Assembly (NCBI RefSeq): GCF_004010195.1 | Contig: NC_057719.1 | Coordinates: 8,357,788 to 8,411,424 of the forward strand | DNA from: Chiloscyllium plagiosum | Taxonomy: Eukaryota | Reading direction: 5' to 3' | Length of the DNA: 53,637 nucleotides | In this document: in pieces, positions 933 through 53,164 of the stretch | How the letters are laid out: each line of letters opens with the position of its first letter | Position numbering within the stretch: the first letter of the stretch is position 1 | Notes under the pieces: model-generated | Told to the model about the DNA's origin: nothing | Databases searched by the model: none | Seen by the model: the letters and a program-made list of their open reading frames with translations, nothing else | Made by a program: the position numbers and the translations under genes

Positions 933-1035
933 AGATTCGGCAGAAGAGTCATATTGAACTCAAAATGTTAATTCTGTTTCTCTCTCCACAAATACTGCCA
1001 GATCTGCTGAGTTTCTCCAGCACTCTTTGTGTTTC
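933..1035 (+). mobile_element. Family C Penelope-like terminus remnant with decayed hammerhead; inverted partner arm at about 485-520
   Basis: GAAGAGTCATATTGAACTCAAAATGTTAA followed by CTGCCAGATCTGCTGAGTTTCTCCAGCA, whose reverse complement lies at 493-518. Same family as 41288. Confidence 0.65.
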
Positions 1036-1279
1036 CTGTGAATTGCACTCTGACAATAATCTGATAATGTCAAAGTGGTTTTGTGAGGTTGATCAAGTGT
1101 TAAATATTTGGCAGAACACTAGAGATGACACCTCAGATATTTTTAAATGGTGCATCCAAAACTTTACTATCCACTTGAGAGGGAACATGGGGTTTTGTAT
1201 TGTTGCATCATCCTTGAGATGACACCTCCAATGGAGGAGCAGCACTCTCTCATCAATCACTAGGGGATCTGCCCTTCAT

Positions 1280-1680
1280 TTTTATATTCATTTTGTGAGA
1301 TGTGGGCATCGCTGCATGGCCAGAATTTAATGCCTGTCCCTAGTTGCCCCTTGAGAAGGTAAGCTGTCTTCTTAAACCACTGCAGTCCACCTGCAGTGGG
1401 TTGACCCACAATGCCATGAATGAGGGAATTCCAGGATTTTGACCAGCGACAGTGAAGGAACGGTGATATATTTCCAAGTCAGGAAGGGAAGTTGAAAGTG
1501 GTGGTGTTTCCATGTATCTGCTGCTCTATCACTATGTATTTCCCATGGCTAATCCACCTAGCCCGTTCAACTCTGGACGCTACTGATCAAATCCAGGTCG
1601 TGTTTTGGAAGGTGCTGCCTGAAGATCTTTGACAAATTTATGCAGTGCATCCTGTAGATGGTCCACACTGCTGCTACTAG
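1280..1680 (-). mobile_element. LINE 3' fragment (clade not assigned)
   Basis: 3' tail is shared with the SINEs at 13025, 27395 and 47503 (GATGTGGGCATCGCTG..GGCCAG.ATTTA.TGCC). Confidence 0.6.
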
Positions 1681-1922
1681 ATCAAGTGCTCAAGTCTCTG
1701 TATTGTGACCATCTCCCCACACATTTCTAATTCATCGGTGAGAGTTCTTCCAACTGAGCCTAGCTTACAATAAGCCGATCATCTGCTTTTTTCAGTGATG
1801 CTCTTTGGGAGATAAATGTTACTTCGGACCCTGGGGAGCATCTTTGATATGGCTCCTGGGGATCTTCAACCTTGAACTGAATAGAAACGGTATAGTGGTG
1901 TTAAACTATATATGATCACAGC

Positions 1923-2082
1923 GTGTCTGTGTGTGTGTGTGTGGATGTGTGTGTGTCTGTGTACGTGTATGGGTGCGTGTGTGTGGGTGTCCATGTGTGT
2001 CTGTGTGTCTGTGTGCGTGCGAGTGTCTGTGCATGCAGGTGTCTGTGCGTGTCTATGTGCGTGTGTGTGAGTGTGTGTGTGT
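1923..2082. repeat. (TG)n microsatellite
   Basis: Direct inspection. Confidence 0.95.
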
Positions 2083-2754
2083 TTTATTCCTGTCGCTGTA
2101 AATTATTTCCTGCACACTACAAAATATCAGACTCCTCCCTTATAAAAGGAAATGTGATTAGTTAGTCAACCATTATGGGTTTTTGGATATACTGTACATA
2201 ACCTGCCCAGAGTAATCCAGTGAATTTGCATAAGATTTGCTATTTTCTTTCTAAAAAAACAGTTTATTAGCAATATGATTATGATCTGTAATTTGTACCT
2301 TCGCTTAGTTCACTGGCCCATTGCATCTAATGAAAAGCTCTTGCAGATCTTATTGCATGCTATCTGCACATAAATAGCGGGTTCAATTCAGTGGAAATGG
2401 AGCATAGCTTCTGCACTAAAGATCATTTGGATAGTTTCAAAGGTGCTTTATGCAGGAATCTGAAGCAGCAGGGAAGGCTCATTAGGGCTCGACAAGCCAT
2501 ATCTCCATTTGACTGATCAGGATGTTGGTTGCAGAGATTAAAACAAACCATTATGATTATTCAACTCCTTATCCATTTTATTTCCAGAAATGTATCCAGC
2601 CTGTGGTGTAGGTCCAGTTATCATACTTGAATCTATGATTCAGATTTGGTTTTAGTGAGGCTATCAGCAAAATTCATTGAGAGACTTAACTTTATGTGGA
2701 ATGGTATTGCCATACCTATCAGTAGAAAAATGAACTTAGGGAAACATGTGGTGC

Positions 2755-6454: not shown

Positions 6455-7200
6455 CTGGTGGTTCAGTGGTTAGTACTTCTGCCTCACAGTGTCAGGGACC
6501 CAGGTTTGACTCCACCCTCAGGTCACTGTCTGTGTGGGGTTTGCACGTTCTCCTTGCGTCAGCGTGGGTTTCCTCTGGATGCTCCGGTTTCCTTTCGCAG
6601 TCCAAAGATGTGCAGGTCAGGTGAACTGGCCGTGCTAAATTGCCCATAGTGTCCAGGAGTGTAAAGGCTATGTGGATTAGCCATTGGAAATGCAGGGTGA
6701 CGGACGTAAGTCAGGGGGCTTGGGTCAGGGTGGGATACTCCTTGGACAGTTGGTGTGGATTTGTTGGGCTGAATTAGAAGCAAAAAAAGCTGCAGATGCT
6801 GGAATCCAAAGTAGACAAACAGGAGAAGAAGGCAATGTTTTGGGTGTAAACCCGTCTTCAGGACTGGCTGAAGAAGAGTTATATCTGAAATGTTGACTTT
6901 GCCACCTCCTGAAGCTGCCTGGCTTGCTGGGGTGTGTTCTTTCAAGATTAGAGTGGTGCTGGAAAAGCACAGCAGGTCAGGCAGCATCGGAGGAGCAGGA
7001 AAATCAAGATTTCAGGCAAAAGCCCTTCATCAGGAATTCTTGGATGCTGCCTGACCTGCTGTGGCTTTTCCAGCACCACTCTAATCTTGACTCTGATCTC
7101 CAGCATCTGCAGTCCTCACTTTCACCTGTGTGTTCTTTCAGCCTCCTGTTTGTCTTCAATGGGCTGAATGGCCTCTTTCTGCACTGTACGGATCCTACGA
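6455..7200 (+). mobile_element. V-SINE whose 3' end is split by nested fold-back elements
   Basis: SINE body 6455-6774 resumes at 7160 after TSD TGGGCTGAAT. Confidence 0.85.
6775..7159. mobile_element. Family B fold-back element with head-to-head decayed hammerheads; hosts a family A fold-back at 6945-7127
   Basis: Outer TSD TGGGCTGAAT (6765-6774 / 7160-7169); inner TSD GTGTGTTCTTTCA (6932-6944 / 7128-7140). Confidence 0.85.
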
Positions 7201-10996: not shown

Positions 10997-11630
10997 TTGA
11001 GTTGAATTGAATTGAATTGAATTTATTGTCACATGTACCAAGGGACAGTGAAAAGCTTTGTCTTGCGAGCAAAACAGGCAGATCACAGTTATGTAACATA
11101 AATAAGTAAATAATAGGTAAACAGCGGCAAAAACAAAAACACAGGTACAGGCGAATGCTCAGAGTTTGTGAGTCCATTCAGTATTCTAACAACAGTAGGG
11201 TAGAATTTTGAAACCGCTGGTGCGTGTGTTCAGGCTGCTGTACCTTCTCCCTGAAGGTAGAGGTTGTAGAAAAACATTTCCAGGGTGGGATGGATCTTTG
11301 AGAATGCTGGCGGCCTTTCCTTGACAGTGGGCCTGGTAGATGGATTCTATAGATGGGAGGTTGTCCTTTGTGATTGTCCAGGCCAAGTCCACCACTCTCT
11401 GTAACCGTCTCCGATCTTGAATGGTACAGTTGCCATACCAGGGAGTGATACATCCAGACAGAAATCTCTCGATGGCGCACTTATAAAAGTTGGCAAGGGT
11501 ATTTGCCACCATGCCAAATTTTCTCAGCTGCCTGAGGAAGAAGAGACATTGTTGGGACTCTGTAACCAGTGCATCTATATGAAGAGTCCAAGAAAGCCTG
11601 TTGTGGATGACCACTCCCAGGAACTTGACA
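10997..11630 (-). mobile_element. Rex1/Babar-type LINE 3' fragment
   Basis: ORF 11186-11614 LSWTLHIDAL..QCLFFLRQLRKFG..FYKCAIERFLSGCITPWYGNC; AATAAA plus (ATTCA)n tail. Confidence 0.85.
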
Positions 11631-12780
11631 CCATTTGGCCCATCATGCCTATACCTGTTCTATTCCCCAGTGCCAATCTCTTCACTTTTCTCCCCATATC
11701 TCTTCACACTATTTCTATCCAAATAATCATCCAATGCGCTTTTGAATTGACCCTGCTTCCACCACGTTTCTGGGACGTTGACTCCATACTCTAGTGACAC
11801 GCTGCACAAGAAAGGTTTTTCTCACAGCACCCTTGTTTATTTTGCACATGACTTTCAACCTACGCCCTGCCATTCTTGCTCAAATCTCCTTTTTCAGTCT
11901 GTCGTGATAATGAAAACTGCGATCAAATCTCCTCTCAGTCTTCTCTCCAGGGAGAACAGTCTTAACTTCTTCAATCTTTCCTCATCGTTGTCGTTTCTCA
12001 ATCTTGTAAATTGATTCTTGGTTTCAAATTGGTTTTTAGTGATGTTGGTTAGACCATAAATCAGTAGTAGGCCACTTGGCCCATTGAGACCACCTTGCCA
12101 TTCAATAAATCCTGACCATTTTGATAATCCTCAATTCCACTTCTCTGCCTTTTACCCTTAACCTTTGATTCCCTTATTGATCAGAAAATTAATGGTTCTG
12201 GGATAAGTATTGGCCACAACGATTAAGAGCAGGATTAAGTCATCTTCCTTCCACCATTCAGCAAGTTCACGGCTGATCTGATTGTGGCTTCAACCCCACT
12301 TTCATGTGTGGCCTCCATGATCTCTGACACCTGAGTTGATCCAACTAATTCAGCCTGAAATGTACTCAATGATGTAACCTCCATTCCTCACTAGGGAGGA
12401 GTGTTCCAAAATCTCTGAGAGAAGAAATTCCTCCTCAGCTCTGTTTTAAATGGAAAACCACCCCCATTTCTTTAAACTGTGACAATGGGGAGAACTCCCT
12501 GGCACATCTGCAAACAGCGTCATGAAATCTATTATTGATCACCCAAGAATAGATTCCGGTTTAATGTCTTATTGGATGGATGTGACCTCTGACAGTGCAG
12601 CACTTCCTCAGTACTGCTCAGTCATGCAGCATGGAAACATACCCTTCGGTCCAACTAGTCCACGCCGACCATGTTCCCAAACTGAACTAGTCCCACCTGC
12701 CTGCGTTTGGCTCATGTCCCTCCAAATCATTCCTTTTCATATGCTTATCCAAAGGTTACTTAAACACTGTAACTGCTCTT
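11630..12780 (-). mobile_element. Several decayed CR1 3' fragments and a DeuSINE remnant
   Basis: Reverse CR1 3' UTR motifs such as CTGAGAGAAGAAATTCCTCCTCA and CCCTTCGGTCCAAC. Confidence 0.6.
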
Positions 12781-13389: not shown

Positions 13390-13710
13390 AAATTGACAGT
13401 CCCGGAGCAGTACGGGGGAGTGTTGGGTAAAAACAAAACCCCAGTTGCTTGCTTAGGTAGAATAGGAAGATCCCATGGCCCTAGTGGAGCAGGGAAGACC
13501 TCCCTTTGTCCTGTGCAACATTTCTTCCTCAACCAATGTTATGTGGAACCAGATGGAGTAACGAGTTTTTATCGCCTTGGATGCTTGCTGTGCATAAGTC
13601 AGTTGCCCCATTTCCTACATTCCAACAACAGTTACACTCTAAAAGAAATGACTTAGTTGTCTGTAAACCACTTTCTGAGGACATGGCTGGTGCTATGTGA
13701 ATGCAACTTC
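13390..13710 (+). mobile_element. DeuSINE/SacSINE-like remnant
   Basis: GCAGTAC.GGGGAGTG..GATCCCATGGC..GCTTGCTGTGCATAA..TTTCCTACATT..AATGCAA; matches 41675. Confidence 0.6.
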
Positions 13711-14079
13711 CAGCTGGTGGGAGGGTAGAGGCAGGTTTATCAGGGAATGAGTTCCCAATGAGAAGGCAATGAACTTAGCAGTCTCTGTTAAAAGTTAAAA
13801 ATCACACAACACCAGGTTATAGTCCAACAGGTTTATTTGGAAGCACTAGCTTTCAGAATGCTGCTCCTTCGTCAGGTCGTTGGGGAGAATAAGATTGTCA
13901 GACACAGAATTTATAGCAAAATTTACAGTGTGATGTAACTGATATTATATTGAAAAAGATCTGGATTGTTTGCTAAGTCGCTCATCTTTTAGAATGACCA
14001 TGTTGGTTTCAGTTCTTTCATATGTAAATTGCAGAATATTTTTTTAGAAGTAACATTCTCATGTGAACTTTAACAATTG

Positions 14080-14257
14080 GTTAAAAATCACACAACACCA
14101 GGTTATAGTCCAACAGGTTTAATTGGAAGCACACTAGCTTTCGGAGCGACGCTCCTTCATCAGGTGATATCACCTGATAAAGGAGCGTCGCTCCGAAAGC
14201 TAGTATGCTTCCAATTAAACCTGTTGGACTATAACCTGGTGTTGTGTGATTTTTAAC
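14080..14257. repeat. 178-bp loopless palindrome (89-bp arms, 2 mismatches); second copy at 14557-14733
   Basis: Centre GGTGAT|ATCACC at 14168/14169; arms pair GTTAAAAATCACACAACACCAGG with CCTGGTGTTGTGTGATTTTTAAC. Confidence 0.95.
14132..14166 (-). ncRNA. Minimal type-I hammerhead ribozyme motif (intact core)
   Basis: Minus strand CAC-CTGATGA-A-GGAGC-GTC-GCTCC-GAAA-GCTA-GTG: stem I CAC/GTG, 5-bp stem II, palindromic AGCU, CUA cleavage triplet. Confidence 0.8.
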
Positions 14258-15557
14258 TTTGTCCACCCCAGTCCAACACCGGCATCTCCGAATCAAGTCC
14301 AACAGGTTTATTTGGAAGCACCAGCTTTCAGAGCGCTGCTCCTTCGTCAGGTCGTTGGGGAGAATAAGATTGTCAGACACAGAATTTATAGCAAAAATTT
14401 ACAGTGTGATGTAACTGAAATTATATATTGAAAAAGACCTGGATTGTTTGCTAAGTCGCTCATCTTTTAGAATGACCATGTTGGTTTCAGTTCTTTCATA
14501 TGTAAATTGCAGAATTTTTTTTAGAAGTTACATTCTCATGTGAACTTTAACAATTGGTTAAAAATCTCACAATACCAGGTTATAGTCCAACAGGTTTAAT
14601 TGGAAGCACACTAGCTTTTGGAGCGCCGCTCCTTCATCAGGTGATATCAGGTGATGAAGGAGCGTCGCTCCGAAAGCTAGTGTGCTTCCAATTAAACCTG
14701 TTGGATATAACCTGGTGTTGTGTGATTTTTAACTTTGTACACCCCAGTCCAACACCCGCATCTCCGAATCAATTTTAACAATTGGTGTCATGTCGTCCCA
14801 GATAATGCATTGAAGGTGTGAGTTTCCCTGTGTGAGACTGTCTGTGCCACAATGGTCAGACTGATTCTCATCTAACAAACGGATTTACAGAATCTTACAT
14901 GGACTCATGCAGTTTTTGAGCAAAATAAAATGTAATTCTGCAAAATCAAATTCACCGCACAAACCTATATGTGTGTGTGTGTGTATGTGTGTGTGGCAGG
15001 GGGTAGGGTAAGGTTATGAGGGTCTGTGAAAGAGTGTGTGTATCCGCATGTAAAGATGTATACAGCTGTGAGAGGGTGTGTGCGAAAGTGTATGTGTGAG
15101 CGTATGAGAGAGAGTCTGGGTGTGTGTGTGTGTTTATGTGTATCTGTAGGAGAGTGTGTGTGTGTGTAGGAGTGTCTGTGTGTGTCTGTCTATCTGTGTG
15201 TATGTAGTGCAATGGGGTCACCTGTAGTCTGACCTGGTTCAGGCCATCCTCATGGGTACTGTTGAAAGTAACATTGTTCCAAGCAAATGACCTTTGCACT
15301 CTGGCTGTAATTGGTCAAGCATGACCCAGACAAAGAAAAAATAGTCTGCAGCATCACTGTATTGTATTCAAAAACAAAACCCACAAAGAGATTGGATTGA
15401 TGTGGCAATTTCTGATATGTAATATAGAATTTCTTTGTAGCTTTTATTGATTAACTTTACACTCTAAAGAGGGAGGAGTATGTTAGTGCTCAGAATGCAG
15501 TGGGTTTTGACCCGAAGTCAGAAAGTTCTGTGTTCAAGTCCTACCTGAAGATTTGAG

Positions 15558-16065
15558 AACAAGGAGTTGACCCTGACCGGGTGTTGCAGACTGGCACATT
15601 CCAAGGTCCAGGGCTACGTGCTGAGGGATGCAGTAAAACTTGGGGCAGCTGCTGCCAAGGTGTAGTGGGGAAAGACCCCTGTCAGAGGTCTTTGGGCCAA
15701 AGTTAAATGGGAGTCCGTTCAGTTATCAGACTCTCCCAGTGCCTCAAATATATGTAAATATAATCCTGCACAGTTAAGAAATTCCTTGGGCTTGTTCTGT
15801 TGGATGGAGCCAAACTCCAATGTTTCTTTCTCAGAACAGGAGGAAGGGTCACCAGACATGAAATGTTAACTCTGATTTCTCTGCACAGACCTGCTGAGCT
15901 TTTCCAGCACCTTCTGACTTTGTTTCTGTTTTACAGCATCCACAGTCTTTTCAATTATTATCCTTTGTTTCTCGATATGCTACTATACAGAATCGAACTG
16001 TGTTTGCGACTAAGTACATATACAAAGATATTTTTATGAATAAAATATATTTTTGAAATAAAAAA
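15558..16065 (+). mobile_element. Tx1/L1-group LINE 3' end, with a family C remnant inserted at about 15835-15950
   Basis: KELTLTGCCRLAHSKVQGYVLRDAVKLGAAAAK and the same 3' UTR end as 8270-8690, plus an A-tail. Confidence 0.8.
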
Positions 16066-16587
16066 AATTGAGCCCAAAAGTCAAGTTAGAGACTCTAGTA
16101 GGGGACTGCATGGGTGCTGATGAGTTGGAATTGCTGCCTTTTGGATAACGTGATAAACCAAGAGTTAGTCTGTCCTGCCCTTGGATGTACATGATTCATC
16201 CCATCAAAGCAGATTTAACTGGGAGTGGTAATGTCTCTGGCACATTCTAGGGATGCTGTTCAAATCTCAACATGATACGTGGTGAAATTTGAATTACATA
16301 AAAATCTGAAACAATTGGTGATCAAGTGTCAATTATCATCAGGTAAAAAACCCCACCTGGTTCACTCATGTCCGACTGGCAAGGATATCTGCCATCCTCA
16401 CCTGGTCTGGCCTACATGTGACTCCAGACCCATAGCAAGATGGTTGACACCTCCTCTCTGAGCTCTGGGCAATTAGAGAAGGGCAATATTTGCCAGTGAT
16501 TCCCATATCCCAGGAACAACTTTATAAAAGAAAAGGGCAGAGGAGTTATCCCAGAATTCTCACCCAACCAATACTTATCCTCCAACC

Positions 16588-17222
16588 TGTGATGGAGCTG
16601 CTCCTTTAACAAGGTTATGCTGTCCTTGACTTTTTCATTCAGAGAGGTCGTAAATGACACAGATTCTGAAAAGTCTGAGGCTGAAGGGTTGTAGGGCCAA
16701 GTTGATTATAGCTAACAGATACTGCCTTAGGTAGAAGGCTTTTGAGTTAAAAAAACACACTTGGACAATGAAAGGGGAATGGCCAGTTCTGCCAGCTCAG
16801 CTTCCCTCTGGTTTGGTTTGGTTTTTAGCAGTAGTATAAAAAAAGCTGTTGGACCCAAAGGAGCAAGTCCAGGCTGGTACTCTCCCTCTGTGACTTCTTT
16901 CCTGTGAGATCCTGTGTTTGGTTTTAGCTGTTGTGCCAAGGGGTGTTTATGAGGATTATTGGAAGTATTTGGAACAGTATCATTAAGATGGGATGATCTG
17001 TTGGATTTTTGGATAGGTTAAGTAATTCGGTATCTGTTTTCTGTTGTTTGTGTTTCATTCAGTAATCTTGGAAATAAATTCTGTTTTGTTTAAAGCTAAG
17101 TGGTTGGCCCAGCAGCATCTCTCCTGAAATATCCACCTTACATCTGCTTCCTGCAACTAGCAAAGTTAGGGTCTCGGCTGCCTTCTTGAAATGTTTGGAG
17201 GGGTTCTGGCCTGGTCCATAAC
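16588..17222 (+). mobile_element. Putative solo LTR inserted into a DeuSINE remnant
   Basis: Begins TGTGATGG and ends CCATAAC; TATAAAA at about 16835 and AATAAA at about 17073; SINE sequence resumes on both sides. Confidence 0.55.
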
Positions 17223-17261
17223 CTATTGATATCAGAAAAAATAGATTATTGGCTCATTGAA

Positions 17262-19875: not shown

Positions 19876-20120
19876 GGATGTGCGCATGATTATATTTTGG
19901 TCTCTGACCCACAGCTTTCAGCTTCTGAGAGAAGGGCACTCCTCATTGCTCCACTGTTCCTGGCTATATTTGCATTCGACAATTAACTGAGTGAAATTAT
20001 CCAAAATATTCTGATTTTATGTTAGCGTTTCACCTTTCACCCACTGTGGTGAGCTGGATTCTGTTAATATTTGCATCGAAGTTAGTGTCATTCGACTGCA
20101 GCCCGGGGAACGAGGATGAA

Positions 20121-20344
20121 GAGTCGAGAGCATAGTGCTAGAAAAGCACAGCAGGTCAGGCAGCATCCGAGGAGCAGGAGAATCCACGTTTCGGGTAAAA
20201 GCCGTTCATCAGGAAGGGCTGATGAAGGGCTTATGCCTGAAACGTCAATTCTGCTGCTCCTCAGATGCTGCCTGACCGGCTGTGCTTTTCCAGCACCACA
20301 CTCTCGACTCTGATCTCCAGCATCTGCAGTTCTCACTTTCTCCA
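20121..20344. mobile_element. Family A fold-back element with head-to-head hammerhead motifs
   Basis: + core CTGATGA-A-GGGC-TTAT-GCCT-GAAA-CGTC at 20219-20246; decayed - core at 20184-20214; about 90-bp inverted arms plus tail. Confidence 0.88.
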
Positions 20345-20539: not shown

Positions 20540-20990
20540 CCTTTCCCTGCCCCTCCCCGCTCCCTTCTACTCCTCCCAGCCACCAACTGGATTCCTTCCT
20601 CCCATTGGCCAACCAGGTTGTACCCTCTACCTGTCTTCACCTATCCCCACTTCACCATCCTGCCCCTGCCACCCCCTTTATCTGCAGCTCCCCCCACCGC
20701 CCACCCCAGTCCTGAAGAAATGTTACACCTGAACCGTTGACTTCTCTACCTCCTGATGCTGCCTGACTTGCTGTGTTCCTCCAGACTCCTGCCTGTCCCT
20801 CCTGATGCTGCCTGGCTTGCTGTGTTCCTCCAGCCTCCTGCCTCTCCCTCTGATGCTGCCTGCCTTGCTGTGTATCCCCAGCCTCCTGCCTGTCCCTTCT
20901 GATGCTGCCTGACTTGCTGTGTTCCTCCAGCCTCCTCCCTGTCCCTCCTGATGCTGCCTGGTTTGCTGTGTTCCTCCAGCCTCCTGCTTG
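20540..20990 (+). repeat. Family B Penelope 3' terminus ending in about 5 copies of a 48-49 bp tandem repeat (20752-20990)
   Basis: C-rich UTR, decayed hammerhead GTC-CTGAAGA..GAACCGTTGAC at 20709; unit CCTGATGCTGCCTGGCTTGCTGTGTTCCTCCAGCCTCCTGCCTGTCCCT. Confidence 0.85.
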
Positions 20991-20992
20991 TA

Positions 20993-21430: not shown

Positions 21431-21460
21431 GTCTACTCTCAGTTGGTTGGTTGGCTGGTT

Positions 21461-22572: not shown

Positions 22573-23473
22573 AGAGCTGAAAAATGTGTTGCTGGAAAAA
22601 CGCAGCAGGTCAGGCAGCATCCAAGGAGCAGGAGAATCGATGTTTCGGGCATGAGCCCTTCTTCAGGAGTGAGGAGGGTGTGCCAAGCAGGATAAGATAA
22701 AAGGTAGGGAGGAGGGACTTAGGGGAGGGGCGTTGGGAATGCGATAGGTGGAAGGAGGTTAAGGTGAGGGTGATAGGCCGGAGAGGGGGTGGGGGCGGAG
22801 AGGTCGGGAAGAAGATTGCAGGTCAAGAAGGCGGTGCTGAGTCCGAGGGTTGGCACTGAGATAAGTTGGGGGGAGGGGAAATGAGGAAGCTGGAGAAATC
22901 TGCATTCATCCCTTGTGGTTGGAGGGTTCTTAGGCGGAAGATGAGGCACTCTTCCTCCAGGCGTCATGTTGCCATGGTCTGGCGATGGAGGAGGCCAAGG
23001 ACCTGCATGTCCTTGGCGGAGTGGGAGAGAGAGTTAAAGTGTTCAGCCACAGTGCGGTTGGGTTGGTTGGTGCAGGTGTCCCAGAGGTGTTCTCTGAAAT
23101 GTTCCACAAGTAGGCGGCCTGTCTCCCCAATGAAGAGGAGGCCATATCGGGTGCAGCGGATGCAGTAAATGATATGTGTGGAGGTGCAGGTGAATTTGTG
23201 ACAGATATGGAAGGATCCCTTGGGGCCTTGGAGGGAAGTGAGGGGGGAGGTGTGGGCGCAAGTTTTGCATTTCTTGCGGTTGCAGGGGAAGGTGCCGGGA
23301 GTGGAGGTTGGGTTGGTGGGGGATGTGGACCTGATGAGGGAGTCACGGAGGGAGTGGTCTTATCGGAACGCTGATCGGGGAGGGAAATATATCCCTGGTG
23401 GTGGGGTCTGTTTGGAGGTGGCGGAAATGACGAAGGATGATACGATGTATCTGGAGGTTGGTGGGGTGGTAGG
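22573..23473 (-). mobile_element. Neptune-type Penelope-like element, 3' part (Cys linker, GIY-YIG endonuclease, terminus with hammerhead)
   Basis: Minus strand PGTFPCNRKKCKTCAH, IIYCIRCTRYGLLFIGETGR, VAEHFNS..HSAKDMQVLGL; hammerhead CTGAAGA-A-GGGCTCATGCCC-GAAA-CATC at about 22638-22669. Confidence 0.9.
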
Positions 23474-24593
23474 TGCTGCCTGACACGCTGTGCTTTTCCA
23501 GCACCACACTCGCGACTCTGATCTCCAGCATCTGCAGTTCTCACTTTCTCCAACGAGACTGGAGAAGCAGGGGCAGCAGAATGAAGGTTGTGTGTGGGTT
23601 GTGCTGGTAGTCCACTGGCAGGCAGGTTGTGATAGAGCTTGGCTTTTCATGGGAACAGAGTGATGAATTATGTGGAGCCCTTCGATTCTTCAGCACGTGG
23701 CTGGAGAGCTGTGTGCACTACCTCTTCTGACCAAGGTCTATCAAATCCCTTTCCCAGCCCCTCCCTTCCACTCCTCCCAGCCACCAGCTGGATTCCTCCC
23801 TCCCATTTACCAACCAGGTTGTACCATTTACCTGTCTTCACCTATCCCCACTTCACCATCCTGCCCCTGCCACCCCCTTTATCTGCAGCTCCCCCCACCG
23901 CCCACCCCAGTCCTGAAGAAATGTTACACCTGAACCGTTGACTTCTCTACCTCCTGATGCTGCCTGACTTGCTGTGTTCCTCCAGACTCCTGCCTGTCCC
24001 TCCTGATGCTGCCTGGCTTGCTGTGTTCCTCCAGACTCCTGCCTGTCCCTCCTNNNNNNNNNNNNNNNNNNNNNNNNNNNNNNNNNNNNNNNNNNNNNNN
24101 NNNNNNNNNNNNNNNNNNNNNNNNNNNNCTGCCTGTCCCTCCTGATGCTGCCTGGCTTGCTGTGTTCCTCCAGCCTCCTGCCTGTCCCTCCTGCTGCTGC
24201 CTGGCTTGCTCTGTTCTTCCAGCCTCCTGCCTCTCCCTCCTGATGCTGCCTGGCTTGCTCTGTTCTTCCAGCCTCCTGCCTGTCCCTCCTGATGTTACCT
24301 GGCTTGTTGTGTTCCCCCAGCCTTCTGCCTGTCCCTCCTGATGCTGCCTGGCTTGCTGTGTTCCTCCAGCCTCCTGCCTCTCCCTCTGATGCTGCCTGCC
24401 TTGCTGTGTATCCCCAGCCTCCTGCCTGTCCCTTCTGATGCTGCCTGGCTTACTGTGTTCCCCTAGCCTCCTGCCTGCTCCTCCTGACACTGCCTGCCTT
24501 GCTGTGTTCCTCCAGCCTCCTGCCTCTCCCTCTGATGCTGCCTGCCTTGCTGTGTATCCCCAGCCTCCTGCCTGTCCCTTCTGATGCTGCCTG
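23474..24593 (+). repeat. Duplicate of 20266 to at least 20850, with the 48-49 bp minisatellite expanded (about 13 units, including the gap)
   Basis: Near-identical unique spacer AACGAGACTGGAGA..CCAAGGTCTATCAAATCCC at about 20345 and 23552. Confidence 0.9.
24054..24128. other. Assembly gap
   Basis: Run of N inside the minisatellite. Confidence 1.
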
Positions 24594-24986
24594 CTGGGAC
24601 ACCCGCACCAACCAACCCAACCGCCCTGTGGCTGTACACTTTAACTCCCCCTCCCACTCCACCAAGGACATGCAGGTCCTTGGCCTCCTCCATCGCCAGA
24701 CCATGGCAACACGACGCCTGGAGGAAGAGCACCTCATCTTCAGCCTAGGAGCCCTCTAATCACAAGGGATGAATGCAGATTTCTCCCACTTCCTCATTTC
24801 CCCTCCCCCCCACCTTGTCTCAGTGCCAACCCTCGGACTTAGCACCGCCTTCTTGACCTGCAATCTTCTTCCCGATCTCTCCCCCTCCACCCCCTCTCCG
24901 GCCTATCACCCTCACCTTAACCTCCTTCCACCTATCGCATTCCCAACGCCCATCCCCCAAGTCCCTCCTCCCTCCCTTTTATCTTA
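24594..24986 (+). mobile_element. Family A Penelope fragment, inverted copy of 22693-23084
   Basis: WDTRTNQPNRPVAVHFNSPSHSTKDMQVLGLLHRQTMATRRLEEEHLIF followed by the C-rich UTR. Confidence 0.9.
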
Positions 24987-25471
24987 GCCAGGCCAGCATT
25001 CATTACTCACCTTAATTGGCTAGAAGGTCATTCATTTTACTGTAGGTCTGGGATCACATGGAAGCCAGATCAGGTAGGGAGAGCAGATTTCCTTCACTCA
25101 CGGGGCAGTACTGAACTAGATGGCTTTCTATGGCAACTGACAGTGGTCACAAGATTGCTACTAGACTCACTCTTTATTCCAAATGTTTTTCATTGAATTC
25201 TGATTGCATCATATTCAATGGCAGAATTCAACCACATTGACCTGGCCTTCTGGATTATTACTCCAGAGACATTACCACTACACCACCACCTCCTGTTAAA
25301 TATATATTGCAAATGCAAGTCCTATGGTTTTTGGTTATGATACTGAATTATAAGTAATAAGATCCTGCTTGTAGTCCACCCAATGTGTACTGGAGTTACA
25401 TGCTGACCCTTATTTAGGGTCTTTGGAAGGATAACATCTTGACCAGATTAGTTTTTATTTTGTCTTCAATA

Positions 25472-27059: not shown

Positions 27060-28080
27060 GAATCGTAGAGTCATAGAGATGTACTGCACGGAAATAGACC
27101 CTTTGGTCCAACTCGTCCATGCCAACCAGATATCCCAACCTAATCTAGTCCCATTTGCCAGCACTTGGCCCATATTCCTCTGAGCCTTTCCTAATTCATA
27201 TATGTTCTGATTTGGAGATGCCGTTGTAAAAATTTGATGTCTGTGTCGATATGTGCGATCTTCTTGGAGATCCTCTCCACTTCAAGCCGAAAGCTAGTGC
27301 TTCCAATTAAACCTGTTGGTCTATAACCTGGTGTTGTGTGATTTTTAACTTTTAAGTGTTGTAAGTGTAAGAGCCTCCACCACTTCCACTGGCAGGGGAG
27401 ACAATGGCCTAGTGGTGTTGTTGCTGGACTCTTAACTCAGCGACCCAGGTATTGTTCTGGGAACCTGGGTTCAAATCCTGCTGTGATAGATGGTGGAAGT
27501 TAAATTCAATAGATATCTGGAATCAAGAGTCTATGATAACCAGGAATCTATTGCTGATTGTTGGAAAAATTCATATGGTTCAATAATATCCTTTAGGGGA
27601 AGGAAACTGCCATCCTTACCTGGTCTGGCCTACATATGACTCTAGGCCCACAGCAATGTGGTTGACTCCTAACTGCTCTCTGGGTAATAAATGCTGAGTG
27701 ATGTCCTCATTTTGTGAATGAGTAAAAACAAAGCTCATTCCATACATGCACCACCCACTGTGTGAAAAAAATGCACTTCAGGACCCTTTTATATCTTTCC
27801 CCTCTCACCCTAAACCTATGCCCTCTATTTCTGGACTTGCCCACCCCAGGGAAAAGATCTTGTCGATTTACCCTATCCATGCCCCTCAAAATTTTATAAA
27901 CCTCTACAAGCTCATCCCTCAGCCTCAGACACTCCAGGGAAAACAGCCCCAGTCTATTTAACGTCTTCCTATAGCTCAAATCCTCCAACCCTGGCAACAT
28001 CCTTGTAAATCTTTTCTGGACTCTTTCAAGTTTAACAACATCTTTCCCGTAGCAAGGTGACCAGAATTGAACACAGTGGA
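27060..28080 (-). mobile_element. CR1 3' fragment with a nested family D piece (27207-27351) and a SINE (27395-27730, +)
   Basis: ORF 27707-28000 LNRLGLFSLECLRLRDELVEVYKILRG..FFTQWVVHVWNEL. Confidence 0.85.
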
Positions 28081-38428: not shown

Positions 38429-39036
38429 ATGATCCCTGGAATGACAGGTCTAACATATGAGGAACGGCTGAGGATACTGGGATTGTATTCGTTGGAGTTT
38501 AGAAGATTAAGGGGAGACTTAATAGAGACGTACAAAATAATACATGGCTTGGAAAAGGTGGATGCTAGGAAATTGTTTCAGTTAGACGAGGAGACTAGGA
38601 CCCGTGGACACAGCCGTAGAATTAGAGGGGGTCTTCCTGAAGAAGGGCCTGTGCCCGAAACGTCGAATCTCCTGTTCCCTGGATGCTGCCTGACCTGCTG
38701 TGCTGTTCCAGCAATAAAGTTTCAACTTTGATCTCCAGCATCTGCAGACCTCACTTTCTCCTCATTTCAGAACAGAAATGCGGAGACATTTCTTCAGCCA
38801 GAGAGTGGTGGGCCTGTGGAATTCATTGCCACGGAGTGCAGTGGAAGCCGGGACGCTAAATGTCTTCAAGGCCGAGATTGATAGATTCTTGTTGTCTAGA
38901 GGAATTAAGGGCTACGGGGAGAACGCTGGTAAGTGGAGCTGAAATGCGCATCAGCCATGATTGAATGGCGGAGTAGACTCGATGGGCCGAATGGCCTTAC
39001 TTCCACTCCTATGTCTTATGGTCTTATGGTCTTATG
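38429..39036 (+). mobile_element. 5'-truncated CR1 nested in the host CR1 RT
   Basis: MIPGMTGLTYEERLRILGLYSLEFRRLRGDLIETYK; ends (GTCTTATG)3; host resumes with DWK. Confidence 0.9.
38634..38667 (+). ncRNA. Minimal type-I hammerhead ribozyme motif (intact core) at the 5' end of a 130-bp family A insert (38634-38763)
   Basis: TTC-CTGAAGA-A-GGGC-CTGT-GCCC-GAAA-CGTC-GAA: stem I TTC/GAA, palindromic ACGU, GUC triplet. Confidence 0.8.
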
Positions 39037-40742: not shown

Positions 40743-40866
40743 GGTAAAAACGAGGACTGCAGATGCTGGAAACCCGAGTCTAGATTAGAGCAATGCTGGA
40801 AAAGTACAGCAGGTCAGGCAGCATCCGAGGAGCAGGAAAATCGACGTTTCGGGCAAAAGCCCTTCA
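40743..40866 (-). mobile_element. Family A terminus, truncated inside the hammerhead core, with a 14-bp flanking direct repeat
   Basis: TCGGGTCAGTGCTG at 40729-40742 and 40867-40880. Confidence 0.88.
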
Positions 40867-41287
40867 TCGGGTCAGTGCTGTCCATTGTCTTCAAAGGAAC
40901 ATGGAGGCAGGGATCTCTGCTGGGTCAGTGATGAGATAGTGGCCCTTTGGGTGTATCAGTTCTATAACACTGTCCAAGGTTTAGAATTATCCTGAGTGAA
41001 TGGAGAGTTGGATGTTGGAGAACAATCAGAGTGTGTTGAAATAAATTAAGTCAGAAGTGAGCAAGGTATTAATGAGTGTTTCAGGAGCAGATGAACTGAG
41101 ACTGGACAGATTTGGGTGATGTTGTCGGGCTGGAAATAAGTGGCCTTAGTGACAGTGTGAATCAGAGGTGAGAAGGTTACCTCAGGGTCAAATACAATAC
41201 CAGAGTAATGTACAGATGCGTTCATCCTCAGACTGTTGCCAAGAAGAGACAGTGGCAGAGACTGAAAACAAGAGGCTAACCCGACAA

Positions 41288-41410
41288 TTCTGAAGAAGTG
41301 TCAAACCAGACTTGAAATGTTAATCCGGTTTCTCTCTCCACGGAAGCTGCCAGAGCTGCTGAGTTTCTCCAGCATCCTCTGTATTGTTTCAAATTTCCAG
41401 CATCCACAGC
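41288..41410 (+). mobile_element. Family C terminus with hammerhead motif
   Basis: ATT-CTGAAGA-AGTGTCAAACCAGACTT-GAAA-TGTT-AAT followed by CTGCCAGAGCTGCTGAGTTTCTCCAGCA. Confidence 0.7.
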
Positions 41411-42079: not shown

Positions 42080-42990
42080 GAGTCTAGAGCCATACAGCAC
42101 AGAAACAGACCCTTTCGTTGAACTCTTCCATGGCAACCAGATATCCTAAATTAATTTAGCCCCATTTGCCAGCACTTGGCCCATATCCCTCTAAAGCCTG
42201 CCTATTCATACAACCATCCAGATACATTTTAAATGTTGTAATTGCACCGACCTCCACCACTTCCTCTGGCAGCTCATTCTATACACGCACTAATGTCTGC
42301 ATTAGTTTGGACTCCCCTACCCAGGGTAATAGATCTTGACTATCCGTGCCCCTCATTATTTTATAAACTTCTATAAGATCGCTACTCAGCCTCCTATTCT
42401 CCAGGGAAAACAGACTCAGCCTATTTAGCCTCTGCTATCGCTCCAACCATCCCACCCTGGCAACCTGTAAAATGTCTTTGAATTCTTTCAAGTTTCGTGG
42501 TGGCTCAGTGATTAGCACTGCTGCTTCACAGCACCAGGGACCTGGGTTTGATTCCAGCCTCGGGTTACTGTCTGTGTGGAGTTTGCACATTCTCCCCGTG
42601 TCTGCGTGGGTTTCCTTTGGGTGCTCTGATTTCCTCCCACAGTCACTAAGATGTGTAGGTCAGGTGAATTGGCCATGGGAAATTGCCCGTAGTGTTAGGT
42701 GCATTAGTTGGAGGGAAATGGGTCTGGATGGGTTATTCTTCGGAGGGTTAGTGTGGACTTTTTGGGCCAAAGAGCGTGTTTCCACACTGTAGGAAAACTA
42801 ATCCTTCCAAAGCAAGGAGACCAGCATTGCACGCAATATTCTAGAAGGGGCCTCACCAATGTTCTATAGAGCCACAACATGACCTCCCACTTCCTACACT
42901 CAGTGCACTGACCAATGAAGGCAAGCGTACCAAACACCTTTTTCACTGCCCTGTTTACCTGCGACTCTGCTTTCAAGGAGTTATGAATCT
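42080..42990 (-). mobile_element. CR1 3' fragment with a nested V-SINE (42495-42795, +)
   Basis: ORF 42704-42976 VKKVFGTLAFI..LYRTLVRPLLEYCVQCWSP. Confidence 0.88.
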
Positions 42991-43679: not shown

Positions 43680-43970
43680 TGGGTGACATGGTGGCTCAGT
43701 GGTTAGCACTGTTGCCTCACAGACCCAGGGACCTAAGTTTGATTCCAGCTTCAGGCCACCCACTGTGTGGAGTTTGTGCGTTCTCCCTGTGACTGCTTGG
43801 GTATTCTCCGGCTGCTCCGGTTTCCTCTCACAGTCACAAAGATGTGCAGGCCATGCTAAATTGTTTTAGGTGTATTAGTCAGAGGGAAATGGGTCTGGGT
43901 GGATTCTTCTTTGGAGGGTCAGTGTGGACTTGTCGGGCTGAAGGGCCTGTTTGCACACTGTAGGGAATCT
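43680..43970 (+). mobile_element. V-SINE (HE1-like), followed by a second-family SINE remnant to about 44240
   Basis: GGTGGCTCAGTGGTTAGCACTG head. Confidence 0.88.
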
Positions 43971-44375: not shown

Positions 44376-45310
44376 TGGATGTTCTATAGGAAAACAAAAC
44401 ATATGGACCAAATATTGAACTACAGAAGCAATCATCCCAACACCTACAAACGAAGCTGCATCAGAACATTATTCCAACGAGCCAACACACACTGCAGCAT
44501 AGAGGAACTACGCAGAGCAGAGGAAGTTCACCTGTACAGTGTATTTAAAAGAATGGGTACCCAATGAACACAGTCCGCCGATTTCTCAGCAACAAACCCA
44601 AACAAGCAGACAAAACATGTCAGAAAGCCTAGCCACCCTCCCTTACATCAAAGGCATCTCAGAAATGACTGCCAGTCTACTCAGACCCCTTGGCCATCAC
44701 GGTAACCCACAAACCCACCAACACACTAAAACAGCAGCTAATGAACTTAAAAGACCCTATACAGACAACAAGCAAAACTAATGTCATTTACAAATCACTG
44801 TGCAAGGACTGTAACAAACACTACATTGGACAAACAGGCAGAAAACTAGCCACCAGGATACATGAACATCAACTAGCCACAAAATGACATGACCCCCTCT
44901 CACTAGTATCCTCCCATACAGATAAGGAAGGACACCACTTTGACTGGGACAACACATCCATCCTAGGACAAGCCAAACAGAGACACGCACAAGAATTCCT
45001 CAAAGCATGGCATTCTGAGCTGAACTTTATCAACAAACACATTGACTTGGACTTGATCTACCTCCCCCTGAGAAAAAGAACAGGAAATTACATCACCATA
45101 TGGTATGACATCACCAAAGGAAATGACATCACAAACCCAAACATATAAATAGAAGGCAGGAATCATCAGCAATGCTTCGTTTGGAAGCCCACTGAAGATG
45201 TTACCTAGTATGGTGACGAAATGTCTGAACATGAACCTCCCAGCTCAGCGAGCAAACCTACATCCAGAACCTTAACCTGAGCTACAAATCTTCTCAAAAC
45301 ACGCTGAACT
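44376..45310 (+). mobile_element. Poseidon-type Penelope-like element, 3' part (RT C-terminus + GIY-YIG), frameshifted
   Basis: YRKTKHMDQILNYRSNHP, TLPYIKGISE, NVIYKSLCKDCNKHYIGQTGRKLATRIHEH, HHFDWDNTSIL. Confidence 0.92.
45190..45227 (+). ncRNA. Minimal hammerhead motif in the Poseidon 3' terminus
   Basis: CA-CTGAAGA-T-GTTACC-TAGTAT-GGTGAC-GAAA-TGTC-TG; ACGT appears decayed to ATGT. Confidence 0.72.
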
Positions 45311-48969: not shown

Positions 48970-49240
48970 GGGCAGCATGGCGGCTCAGGGTTAGCACCGC
49001 TGTCTCACAGTGCCAGGGACCTGGGTTCGATTCCAGCCTCAGGCAACTGTCTGTATAGAGTTTGCAAGTTTTCTCTGGATGCTCCGGTTTCTTTCCATAG
49101 TCCAAAGATACCCATTGTATTTGGGTAGGTTCAGGCTAGGTAGATTAGCCATGGGAAATGCAGGGTTACAGGGTTTAGATGGGAATGCTCTTTGGAGGGT
49201 TGGTTTGGACTGAATAGCCTGCTTCCACACTATAGGGATT
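48970..49240 (+). mobile_element. V-SINE (HE1-like)
   Basis: GGCGGCTCAGGGTTAGC..GGTTCGATTCC head. Confidence 0.85.
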
Positions 49241-50452: not shown

Positions 50453-51303
50453 GTGACAGAGGTGCAAAGAACAATCAGTTAAATGGATAGACAGAGTAAC
50501 CATACATTTAATTTATGCTTGAATGTATATAAAAATTAACTTCTGACCATCAAAGTTTTCATCTTTCGTATACTTGTTCGAATCTGTTTCACAATTTCTT
50601 TTTTCCCACTCGAGTATCAGAAACACTGGGAGACATCCTGGTCCAAGGCGTGCCCTGCACATTTCAGGACCATGGTCAGCGACCAGCGTTACGAGTTTAT
50701 CCACGGTCCGGCACTTCCAAGGATCCTGACAGGATCTCAACGCCTTGAAAGTCTTGCTCATCAAGTTTCAATCCCCTTTCCAAAGTCTTCCCTACAATTT
50801 GGTTTGAAAAAACAATCAGACTTTTACATCAGGAATTGGAATGGGCCTGTTAATTTGAAATGAAACAGAGGAGGGGTGTGAATTTCTTGGACGATACAGA
50901 GCGATGATGATAATGTGAGTCAAAGGCTGCAGAAAGACAGCAGCAAGATCGAAATGAGGTGAACTTCCATCCGCAGGAACATCCACAATTGGATATAGAA
51001 ACATACACAATCCTTGATGTCACAAGGAATTAAGGGCTACGGGGAGAATGCGGGTAAGTGGAGTTGAAATGCCCATCAGCCATGATTGAATGGTGGAGTG
51101 GACTCGATGGGCCGAATGGCCTTACTTCCGCTCCTATGTCTTATGGTCTTATGAACTGGTCCTCACCCTGAACAACTTCTCTTTCCAATCCTCCCACTTC
51201 CTCCAAACGAAAGGAGTAGCCATGGGCACCCGCATGGGCCCCAGCTATGCCTGCCCCTTCGTAGGATATGTGGAACAATCCATCTTCCGCAACGACACTG
51301 GCC

Positions 51304-52178
51304 NNNNNNNNNNNNNNNNNNNNNNNNNNNNNNNNNNNNNNNNNNNNNNNNNNNNNNNNNNNNNNNNNNNNNNNNNNNNNNNNNNNNNNNNNNNNNNNNN
51401 NNNNNNNNNNNNNNNNNNNNNNNNNNNNNNNNNNNNNNNNNNNNNNNNNNNNNNNNNNNNNNNNNNNNNNNNNNNNNNNNNNNNNNNNNNNNNNNNNNNN
51501 NNNNNNNNNNNNNNNNNNNNNNNNNNNNNNNNNNNNNNNNNNNNNNNNNNNNNNNNNNNNNNNNNNNNNNNNNNNNNNNNNNNNNNNNNNNNNNNNNNNN
51601 NNNNNNNNNNNNNNNNNNNNNNNNNNNNNNNNNNNNNNNNNNNNNNNNNNNNNNNNNNNNNNNNNNNNNNNNNNNNNNNNNNNNNNNNNNNNNNNNNNNN
51701 NNNNNNNNNNNNNNNNNNNNNNNNNNNNNNNNNNNNNNNNNNNNNNNNNNNNNNNNNNNNNNNNNNNNNNNNNNNNNNNNNNNNNNNNNNNNNNNNNNNN
51801 NNNNNNNNNNNNNNNNNNNNNNNNNNNNNNNNNNNNNNNNNNNNNNNNNNNNNNNNNNNNNNNNNNNNNNNNNNNNNNNNNNNNNNNNNNNNNNNNNNNN
51901 NNNNNNNNNNNNNNNNNNNNNNNNNNNNNNNNNNNNNNNNNNNNNNNNNNNNNNNNNNNNNNNNNNNNNNNNNNNNNNNNNNNNNNNNNNNNNNNNNNNN
52001 NNNNNNNNNNNNNNNNNNNNNNNNNNNNNNNNNNNNNNNNNNNNNNNNNNNNNNNNNNNNNNNNNNNNNNNNNNNNNNNNNNNNNNNNNNNNNNNNNNNN
52101 NNNNNNNNNNNNNNNNNNNNNNNNNNNNNNNNNNNNNNNNNNNNNNNNNNNNNNNNNNNNNNNNNNNNNNNNNNNNNN
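51304..52178. other. Assembly gap
   Basis: Run of N inside the Penelope copy. Confidence 1.
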
Positions 52179-52412
52179 TGGGGTGGGGGCGGAGAGGTTG
52201 GGAAGAAGATTGCAGGTTAGGAAGGCGGTGCTGAATTTGAATTCAGCACCGCCTTCCTAACCTGCAATCTTCTTCCCGACCTCTCCTCCCCCACCCCAGT
52301 CTGACCTATCACCCTCACCTTGACCTCTTTCCACCTATCACATTTCCGACGCCCCTCCCCCAAGTCCCTCCTCCCTATCTTTTATCTTAGCCTGCTGGAC
52401 CAACTTTCCTCA

Positions 52413-52446
52413 TTCCTGAAGAAGGGCTAATGCCCGAAACGTCGAT
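52413..52446 (+). ncRNA. Minimal type-I hammerhead ribozyme motif (intact core)
   Basis: TC-CTGAAGA-A-GGGC-TAAT-GCCC-GAAA-CGTC-GA. Confidence 0.78.
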
Positions 52447-52933
52447 TCTCCTGTTCCCTAGATGCTGCCTGACCTGCTGCGCTTTTCCAGCAACACATTT
52501 CCATCTCTGATCTCCAGCATCTGCAGACCTCACTTTCTCCTTATGGTCTTATGGTCTTATGATGGGACTGGACAGGCTTGTTGAGTGTTCCCGATGTAGG
52601 GAAGTCCAGAACTTGCAGTCACAGTCTAAGAATAAGGGGATAAACCATTGAGGAGTGAGCTGAGGAAGAATTTCTTCACTCCACAAGTCGTGAACCTGTG
52701 GAATTCTCTCCCACAGAAAGCTGTTGGGGCGAGTTTGTTAGATATGTTTAAAAGGGAATTGGACGTGGCCCTTGTGGCTAAAGATCAGTTAGGAAGAATG
52801 GACAATAATTGCTGGCCCAGCCATCCACATACTATGTATGAATAAACAAAAATGTCTCTCTATTCAGGGGTAGGCTATCTTCCATGATGTTCTGGTCAAT
52901 ATTCATCCCACACTAAGCAACCAAAACTGCAGA

Positions 52934-53164
52934 GACCAAAAAAATCTGCAGATGCTGGAATTCAAAGTAAACAAACAGGAAGCTTGAAGAACACAGTAAG
53001 CCCAGGGTCATCAGGAGGTGGAGGTGGTTTCAGGTATAACCCTTCTCCAGGACTCAGAGAGCTTGAGTCCTGAAGAAGGGTTAATATCCAAAACATTGAC
53101 TTCTCCACCTCCTGCTGCTGCCTGGCTTGCTGTGTTCTTCCAGCCTCCTGCTTGTCTATCACTA
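52934..53164. mobile_element. Family B fold-back element, decayed hammerheads
   Basis: TSD AAAACTGCAGA (52923-52933 / 53165-53175); centre CAGGACTCA..TGAGTCCTG. Confidence 0.82.

What the first reader, a model, noticed from the sequence alone, without database searches (positions are those of the whole stretch)
933..53100. At least five sequence families share the same minimal, dimer-type hammerhead architecture
Seen: A = TTC-CUGAAGA-A-GGGC-nnnn-GCCC-GAAA-CGUC-GAA (38634, 52413, 20219, 22638 on minus). B = GUC-CUGAAGA..(G)AAACGUU-GAC (decayed; 6865, 20709, 53067). C = AUU-CUGAAGA..GAAA-UGUU-AAU (41288, 937). D = CAC-CUGAUGA-A-GGAGC-GUC-GCUCC-GAAA-GCUA-GUG (14132 on minus). Poseidon = CA-CUGAAGA-U-GUUACC..GGUGAC-GAAA-UGUC-UG (45190). 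Stems I and II differ in sequence between families but stay paired, and stem III is reduced to a 4-nt palindrome (ACGU or AGCU). Known: such PLE hammerheads are thought to cleave as dimers through this palindrome. More than 15 motif copies in 54 kb is a high density.
Basis: partly seen in the sequence, partly recalled or inferred. Interest (0 to 1): 0.7.

Follow-up and report, generated by a model that had tools for sequence, protein, structure and literature searches.

The report
Shark Penelope-element minimal hammerheads
The window is littered with tiny hammerhead-ribozyme motifs that belong to the ends of Penelope-like jumping genes in a shark genome; the motifs are real but mostly decayed, and this kind of motif is already described in many other animals.

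Summary
Real, but a known kind. 23 motif copies are recognisable (4 are local duplicates); 10 of 23 keep the core and 5 of 23 keep core, stems and a self-complementary tetramer. A strict descriptor gives 7 hits against 0 in each of 30 shuffles. The five families are three sequence lineages: A, B and C are homologous, D/D2 and Poseidon are separate. A and Poseidon sit 3' of Penelope-like RT/GIY-YIG remnants; D is linked to such an ORF through its tail. Stems covary. C and Poseidon carry AUGU, self-complementary only through G-U pairs; no B copy is intact. Cervera & De la Pena 2014 described this architecture, with 6-8 families per vertebrate genome; no shark is in their alignment. Dimer cleavage is untested here, and the active dimer is not the favoured fold. 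Side result: truncated copies start at the 5' edge of the motif, not at its cut site, so the copied RNA was uncleaved. The scan noted both points before on other pieces of this genome.

The parts
38634..38761 (+). Family A short copy: intact minimal hammerhead (core C3 38637, predicted cut after 38664), downstream block and tail; sits inside a CR1-like LINE remnant
   Evidence: CR1 label of the flanks is my recognition of the ORF text, not a database hit
51153..51302 (+). PLE reverse-transcriptase fragment upstream (across an N gap) of the 52416 motif
   Evidence: tblastn 90% over 50 aa to P0002, E 8e-23
52243..52540 (+). Family A pseudo-LTR with intact motif (C3 52416, predicted cut after 52443) and tail
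22859..23474 (-). Neptune-type PLE 3' end: Zn-finger-like linker and GIY-YIG endonuclease remnant
   Evidence: E 7e-70 to P0002; Pfam GIY-YIG only E 0.064
22582..22858 (-). 3' pseudo-LTR of that element with family A motif (C3 22666; tetramer decayed to ACAU)
24595..24989 (+). Inverted arm of the same Neptune 3' end (EN end and upstream pLTR, no motif)
20115..20343 (.). Head-to-head family A pair (C3 20212- and 20219+), tail on the + arm only; both motifs defective
6945..7127 (.). Head-to-head family A pair (C3 7033-; + arm starts at +45), 13-nt target duplication, inserted in a B copy
40743..40866 (-). Family A short copy with 14-nt target duplication; its first four 'core' letters are target DNA
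6780..6941 (.). Head-to-head family B pair (C3 6861- and 6868+), decayed
20708..20991 (+). Family B motif (C3 20712, decayed) with C-rich upstream pLTR, followed by a 49-nt tandem array
23909..24593 (+). Duplicate of the B motif (C3 23913) and longer 49-nt array
52934..53164 (.). Head-to-head family B pair (C3 53050- and 53070+), 11-nt target duplication, decayed
41286..41408 (+). Family C copy (C3 41290): core intact, stem II with one U-U, AUGU tetramer
934..1033 (+). Family C copy, 3 core mismatches
15838..15945 (+).
14080..14296 (.). Head-to-head family D pair (C3 14163- intact, 14174+ with a G8 change), axis 5 nt upstream of the cores, tail on the + arm
13794..13878 (-). D2 motif (C3 13875), same strand and 288 nt downstream of 14163; end of a longer pLTR into which D inserted
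   Evidence: 13-nt target duplication around the D block
14297..14780 (.). Tandem duplicate (94%) of the D pair plus D2 (C3 14350-, 14640-, 14651+), all three defective
27224..27355 (.). N-terminal piece of a shark PLE ORF (minus) joined head to head with a truncated D motif (plus, from 27287)
44382..45265 (+). Penelope/Poseidon-type PLE 3' end (RT thumb, GIY-YIG) and pLTR
   Evidence: E 4e-105 to P0017
45190..45227 (+). Intact Poseidon motif (C3 45192, predicted cut after 45225), 6-bp stem II, AUGU tetramer, ATG starting at core position 9

Best explanation
These are the minimal type-I hammerhead motifs carried in the pseudo-LTRs of endonuclease-bearing Penelope-like elements of a carpet-shark-like genome: one Neptune-type lineage with subfamilies A, B, C, a second probably Neptune-type lineage (D, D2) and one Penelope/Poseidon element. 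Shown: the motifs, their place 3' of PLE ORF remnants, target duplications, head-to-head pairs with one tail, compensatory stem changes. Inferred: the fold was kept by selection on active master elements; the genomic copies are dead products of target-primed reverse transcription that starts 85-125 nt downstream of the core, copies an uncleaved RNA and often stops at the 5' edge of the motif; they then decay neutrally. Cleavage, where it happens, needs two motifs (tetramer and stem I pair across copies) and probably the element's protein, and is weak in bare RNA.
For: Counts above chance. PLE context for A and Poseidon; the D tail translates to a peptide matching 5 of 8 residues just upstream of the ORF start in P0023, whose family aligns to RT-GIY-YIG proteins. 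Target duplications of 11-14 nt in 4 of 14 inserts tested. Covariation within A/B/C: 82% of 84 cells paired, 11 cells with two-sided change, 0 of 500 shuffles reach that; slid controls 20-42%. Across five representatives stem I pairs 14 of 15 (1 of 120 permutations) and stem II 19 of 20 (2 of 120). In 124 unrelated metagenome matches where stem I was not in the pattern, pairs 1-3 hold in 120, 114 and 90. Same architecture and consensus in PMC4209133. Uncleaved template and internal initiation as in PMC11167929; 5' ends at the motif edge.
Against: No cleavage was tested. 18 of 23 copies are defective. B and C have no ORF remnant next to them in the window (membership by homology to A). The EN remnant upstream of D2 is only a few residues by eye and gave no tblastn hit. 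With second-choice representatives stem I pairing falls to 12 of 15 (4 of 120); representatives were picked as the best copies and A/B/C are related, so the permutation counts are not probabilities. Two of five measures do not beat the shuffles (70/500, 380/500). 8 of 14 inserts show no duplication or only 5 nt. No Rfam hammerhead hit.
Confidence: 0.9

Rival explanations
1. The motif is kept as a non-cleaving RNA signal (5' cap of the pLTR transcript, protein-binding or RNA-RNA pairing site) and cleavage is vestigial in these lineages.
For: Copies retain the whole uncut motif and none of 18 truncated arms starts at the cut site (top loose ends). Active double hammerhead is 11-15 kcal/mol above the best dimer fold for the intact A, D and Poseidon copies. 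Catalytic mutants did not affect insertion in vitro and no reads ended at the cut site in Anolis (PMC11167929).
Against: The catalytic core letters are kept across three unrelated lineages, which a mere hairpin would not need; low but real cleavage is published for dimers and for a protein-assisted Poseidon motif. Nearest-neighbour energies ignore the tertiary core.
Confidence: 0.3
2. The short copies are self-standing non-autonomous families (SINE-like or retrozyme-like) that spread through self-cleaved circular RNA.
For: Short 85-130 nt copies with target duplications are the commonest form; D and D2 form a same-strand pair 288 nt apart; retrozymes are proposed PLE derivatives (10.64898/2026.07.22.740005).
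Against: No tandem array holds a motif in every unit (the 49-nt arrays lack it); no canonical 6-bp helix I or helix III; copy ends lie at the motif's 5' edge and at the tail, not at the cut site; the D-D2 pair is explained by insertion of D into the D2 pLTR.
Confidence: 0.1
3. The shared look is an artefact of a loose pattern applied to a repeat-rich window.
For: The motif is short; Rfam does not score it; most copies break the pattern.
Against: 0 hits in 30 shuffles; position in pLTRs; compensatory changes.
Confidence: 0.01

Closest known systems
Minimal hammerheads (min-HHR) in pLTRs of metazoan Penelope-like elements (Cervera & De la Pena 2014, PMC4209133)
   Same: Type-I topology, CUGANGA-H-G...C-GAAA core, one unpaired base before stem II, G10.1-C11.1, short helix I, no helix III but a palindromic tetramer; several families per genome; mostly solo copies; opposite-strand pairs.
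   Different: Host: no shark among the species named in their Fig. S3 alignment or Table S1 and 'shark' is absent from the main text. Local density is higher than their genome totals imply (7 strict hits in about 52 kb, one reader-selected window).
Poseidon element PAc of Anolis (Frangieh et al. 2024, PMC11167929)
   Same: [quoted passage not shown]
   Different: Only the 45192 copy is Poseidon; A/B/C are Neptune-type with a candidate ATG about 45 nt after C3. The parts read do not report 5' ends clustering at the motif edge.
PLE insertion architecture: inverted 5'-truncated copy and 30-40 bp tail (Arkhipova et al. 2013, PMC3846280; Craig et al. 2021, PMC8557442)
   Same: Head-to-head arms, tail on one arm, target duplications of about 8-14 nt, Zn-finger-like linker in Neptune.
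   Different: Here many inserts are only the last 85-130 nt of the pLTR.
Non-LTR retrozymes (Cervera & De la Pena 2020, PMC7229834; Li et al. 2026 preprint)
   Same: Type-I hammerheads, dimer-dependent in vertebrates, PLE-related.
   Different: Retrozymes are tandem arrays with (mostly canonical) hammerheads in each unit and give circular RNAs; not seen here.

Membership tests
PLE minimal hammerhead (Cervera & De la Pena 2014) | Conserved core CUGANGA, GAAA and NUH cleavage triplet in type-I order | tested here: met
   10 of 23 copies, in all three lineages
PLE minimal hammerhead (Cervera & De la Pena 2014) | One unpaired base before stem II and G10.1-C11.1 closing pair | tested here: met
   G-C in 38637, 52416, 14163, 45192; G-U in 13875 and most B and C copies
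PLE minimal hammerhead (Cervera & De la Pena 2014) | No helix III; self-complementary tetramer at 15.1-16.1 | tested here: met
   ACGU (A), AGCU (D, D2), AUGU by wobble (C, Poseidon, one B); broken in 7 of 23
PLE minimal hammerhead (Cervera & De la Pena 2014) | Short helix I and helix II with compensatory changes between families | tested here: met
   helix I is 2-3 bp in the intact copies, shorter than the 4-5 bp given for Schistosoma
PLE minimal hammerhead (Cervera & De la Pena 2014) | Located in the pLTR of an RT + GIY-YIG element | tested here: met
   Direct for A and Poseidon; through the tail peptide for D; by homology only for B and C
PLE minimal hammerhead (Cervera & De la Pena 2014) | Self-cleavage as a dimer or with protein help | not testable with these tools
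   Folding energies do not favour the active dimer; the RNA run does not preserve native ends
Neptune clade PLE (lineage A/B/C) | C-terminal GIY-YIG with a Zn-finger-like Cys motif in the RT-EN linker | tested here: met
   Cys motif just before the EN in ORF 22964-23359 and in P0002, P0005, P0007; feature from PMC8557442; no tree was built
Neptune clade PLE (lineage D/D2) | RT/EN sequence placing it in Neptune | tested here: inconclusive
   Linked proteins P0023 and P0025 align better to Neptune-type P0005/P0007 (E to 1e-17) than to Poseidon-type P0018 (E 4e-4); no linker seen
Penelope/Poseidon clade PLE (45192) | C-terminal GIY-YIG without the Zn-finger linker; ORF start at stem II as in PAc | tested here: met
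   clade name rests on these features and on my knowledge, no tree was built
Non-LTR retrozyme | Tandem units each with a complete hammerhead | tested here: not met
   Arrays in 13500-25200 lack the motif; one same-strand pair only (D, D2)
Non-LTR retrozyme | Unit-length linear and circular RNAs | not testable with these tools
   One polyA single-cell run gave no joints in the listed rows, which is no test
Rfam hammerhead families | Covariance-model match | tested here: not met
   None among 23 matches at E<=1

The most novel reading that the evidence does not exclude
The minimal hammerhead marks the very 5' end of the pLTR transcript (an initiator-like sequence with its A four bases before the core) and works mainly as an RNA-RNA coupling: tetramer plus stem I pair two templates of the same lineage (ACGU/AUGU versus AGCU are mutually incompatible, and stem I strands are lineage-specific), so that the dimeric PLE protein primes both target ends and joins the two cDNAs head to head at the motif edge. 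Cleavage would be a late release step or vestigial.
Probability: 0.12. Interest if true: 0.65.

Novelty: new member of a known kind. Interest (0 to 1): 0.22.

Why it matters
As stated, it extends a described motif class to cartilaginous fish and shows three PLE lineages side by side; a specialist would expect it. The useful by-product is a footprint of the PLE life cycle: most short copies hold the complete uncut motif and begin at its 5' edge, which bears on the open question of what PLE hammerheads are for and gives simple tests (5' RACE, cyclic-phosphate mapping, mixed-lineage dimers).

Tried and rejected
Rfam scan: no hammerhead model hit; only hairpin-like miRNA matches below gathering score. 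No whole genome is held, so no genome-wide count. No RNA holder listed on record. Laying reads: run X22 laid nothing (no test); X21 shows both strands and no place where many molecules begin or end, but the library cannot show native ends. Metagenome scan gave 120 loci that by eye lack the shark downstream block: used only as an outside check of stem I, not as shark copies; 4 of 128 matches lacked flanks and were dropped. Short-element folds are not more stable than shuffles (z -1.9 to +1.6 for 6 of 6). Cis double hammerhead of the natural D-D2 pair costs 15.5 kcal/mol over the best fold. Initiator-like match at -4 holds for 3 of 5 copies with upstream sequence (two A, one B, all related), not for D2 or Poseidon: weak. 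Rejected: five independent origins; retrozyme array; chance pattern. Literature searches for a shark report and for 5'-end clustering found none, in a library that lacks most subscription papers and Repbase/Dfam entries.
Full report
Setting. The window is repeat-rich vertebrate DNA with three N gaps. The best protein matches of its transposon remnants are named from Chiloscyllium punctatum and Stegostoma tigrinum, so a carpet-shark-like host is likely. No whole genome is held.

Observation. A strict type-I minimal hammerhead descriptor finds 7 sites and none in each of 30 dinucleotide shuffles; with one core mismatch 11 sites against a mean of 0.43 (ignore the 'pal' sums there, a column error). 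Two plain patterns give 7 and 3 matches against 0.02 and 0.01 expected. I tabulated 23 recognisable copies by hand (A 7, B 6, C 3, D 4, D2 2, Poseidon 1, correcting five out-of-register rows). Four are local duplicates. Ten of 23 keep the core and cleavage triplet; five keep also stem II, at least two stem I pairs and a self-complementary tetramer (38637, 52416, 14163-, 13875-, 45192). No B copy is intact. C and Poseidon have AUGU, self-complementary only through G-U pairs. One counted copy (40870-) borrows its first four core letters from the target duplication. Rfam has no hammerhead match.

How many families. A, B and C align over about 125 nt through motif, downstream block and tail; their downstream parts score above all 300 shuffles, whereas the 7 pairs with D or Poseidon do not. 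So there are three lineages with five or six subfamilies.

What carries the motifs. Family A at 22666- follows a GIY-YIG remnant with a Cys-rich linker (23474-22859; E 7e-70 to a shark protein, and matches to RT + GIY-YIG proteins P0005, P0007), and at 52416 follows an RT fragment across a gap: Neptune type by the linker (feature from PMC8557442, passages). The 45192 motif follows a GIY-YIG remnant without that linker, with an ATG at core position 9, as in the Anolis Poseidon element (PMC11167929, parts 1-2 of 4 read). D has no adjacent ORF, but its tail translates to a peptide matching 5 of 8 residues just before the ORF start of P0023, and a piece of that ORF lies head to head with a truncated D motif at 27224-27355; these proteins align to Neptune-type RT proteins. 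B and C are assigned by homology to A only. Inserts show PLE hallmarks: head-to-head arms, a tail on one arm, and target duplications of 11-14 nt in 4 of 14 tested (6 nt in 3 more, 5 nt or none in the rest).

Covariation. Within A/B/C (11 of the 16 A/B/C copies aligned, 8 pairs): 82% of 84 cells paired, 11 cells changed on both sides (0 of 500 shuffles), slid controls 20-42%; two of five measures do not beat shuffles, and relatedness inflates such tests. Across one best copy per family stem I pairs 14 of 15 and stem II 19 of 20 (1 and 2 of 120 permutations); with second-choice copies 12 of 15 (4 of 120). In 124 of 128 metagenome matches to an A-like pattern that did not specify stem I, pairs 1-3 hold in 120, 114 and 90; over 13 clusters 28 of 39 against a shuffle mean of 17. 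Those loci are not shark copies by eye and were not shown to be PLEs.

Dimer reading. The tetramer cannot close a stem within one copy, so stem III must form across two copies; this is anatomy plus the published model. ViennaRNA puts the active double hammerhead 11-15 kcal/mol above the best dimer fold and above two monomers for the intact A, D and Poseidon copies; the natural D-D2 pair (288 nt apart, same strand) pays 15.5 kcal/mol (no tertiary terms). That fits published behaviour: no cleavage for a monomer and low cleavage for dimers (PMC4209133), cleavage only with protein and no need of it for insertion in vitro (PMC11167929), 1 of 9 Xenopus dimers cleaving (10.64898/2026.07.22.740005, parts 1-3 of 5 read, supplements closed). 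ACGU and AUGU can cross-pair, AGCU cannot pair with either, and stem I strands of D and Poseidon do not match the others.

Side result: where copies begin. Of 18 truncated, non-duplicate A, B and D arms, 11 start between -6 and +4 of core C3, 7 start between +9 and +47, none at the cut site (+28) (my count). Laying public data on 22500-23400 at 80% likeness: the best-supported 5'-side loose end is 22668 (two bases before C3) in X1 (1103 contigs), X9 (951) and RNA run X21 (330 reads), with low agreement of the loose letters (0.33-0.37), as expected for unrelated flanks; the next ones (22661, 22651) read on to about the same edge. The cut site is not among the six ends listed per run; 2427 further rows were not shown and X1 and X9 were not fully counted. 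Depth falls about 4-, 8- and 9-fold across the motif and then stays within about one order of magnitude along the ORF; the tool warns that this is no copy number, and B and C add to the downstream side. So the templates were uncut. A transcript start at -4 would explain it (initiator-like match in 3 of 5 copies, all of the A/B lineage; the consensus is recalled), but in D. virilis the start lies 46 nt before an intron that ends at helix I (PMC2377424 passages; PMC4209133), and stalling, template switching or self-priming (PMC3846280 passages) are open rivals. X21 shows both strands, consistent with passive read-through; X22 laid nothing.

Comparison. Cervera & De la Pena 2014 (main text parts 1-2 of 4, supplement parts 1-2 of 3) give the same consensus, 56 motifs from 40 animals, 6 and 8 families in coelacanth and Xenopus, solo copies and opposite-strand pairs. 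No shark is named there. Searches for a shark report found none beyond a review that mentions the shark only as a shape (PMC6155905 passages); PMC7229834 has no shark mention (passages); the 2026 preprint includes one chondrichthyan for tandem retrozymes. Repbase and Dfam were not available. Earlier notes of this scan on other pieces of the genome reach the same readings; I consulted them after and they are not independent evidence.

Verdict. Observation largely right with corrections; interpretation right in kind; a new host example of a described class. Interest 0.22. Boldest open reading: the motif as transcript 5' end and lineage-specific RNA coupling for twin-primed insertion (probability 0.12).

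Noticed in passing
window 20749-20991 and 23950-24593: 49-nt tandem arrays born from the block just downstream of the family B motif; the motif itself is not in the unit.
   Followed up: partly
window 20263-20850 and 23471-24051: A 588-nt composite (A tail, unique DNA, B pLTR) is present twice at 96% identity; the second copy sits at the junction between the two inverted arms of a Neptune 3' end (22582-23474 and 24595-24989), as if captured during or after insertion.
   Followed up: partly
window 13794-14780: D palindrome inserted into the pLTR of the related D2 element, then tandem duplication of about 480 nt, leaving two intact same-strand motifs 288 nt apart: a natural dimer test construct.
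   Followed up: yes
window 6780-7155: A family A palindrome inserted into a family B palindrome with a 13-nt duplication; with the D case, a hint that these elements target pLTRs of their kin.
   Followed up: partly
window 52179-52298: 120-nt near-perfect hairpin inside the Neptune pLTR next to an N gap; may be an inversion junction or an assembly artefact.
   Followed up: no
window 25937-26084, 195-366, 34944-34991: Family A palindromes or fragments truncated inside or after the motif (starts +9 to +47).
   Followed up: partly
window 567-649, 6470-6552, 19557-19639, 42512-42594, 43703-43785, 48991-49073 and inverted copies: Abundant tRNA-like SINE copies (resemble shark HE1; label recalled, not tested) and many CR1-like LINE fragments.
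   Followed up: no
L001-L120 (e.g. L006, L016, L067, L109): Non-shark metagenome contigs hold the same minimal motif with other stem I strands, several as head-to-head pairs close to the motif.
   Followed up: partly
window 11189-11659 (-): LINE-like ORF end with a Pfam ALKBH8_N match (E 4e-7).
   Followed up: no
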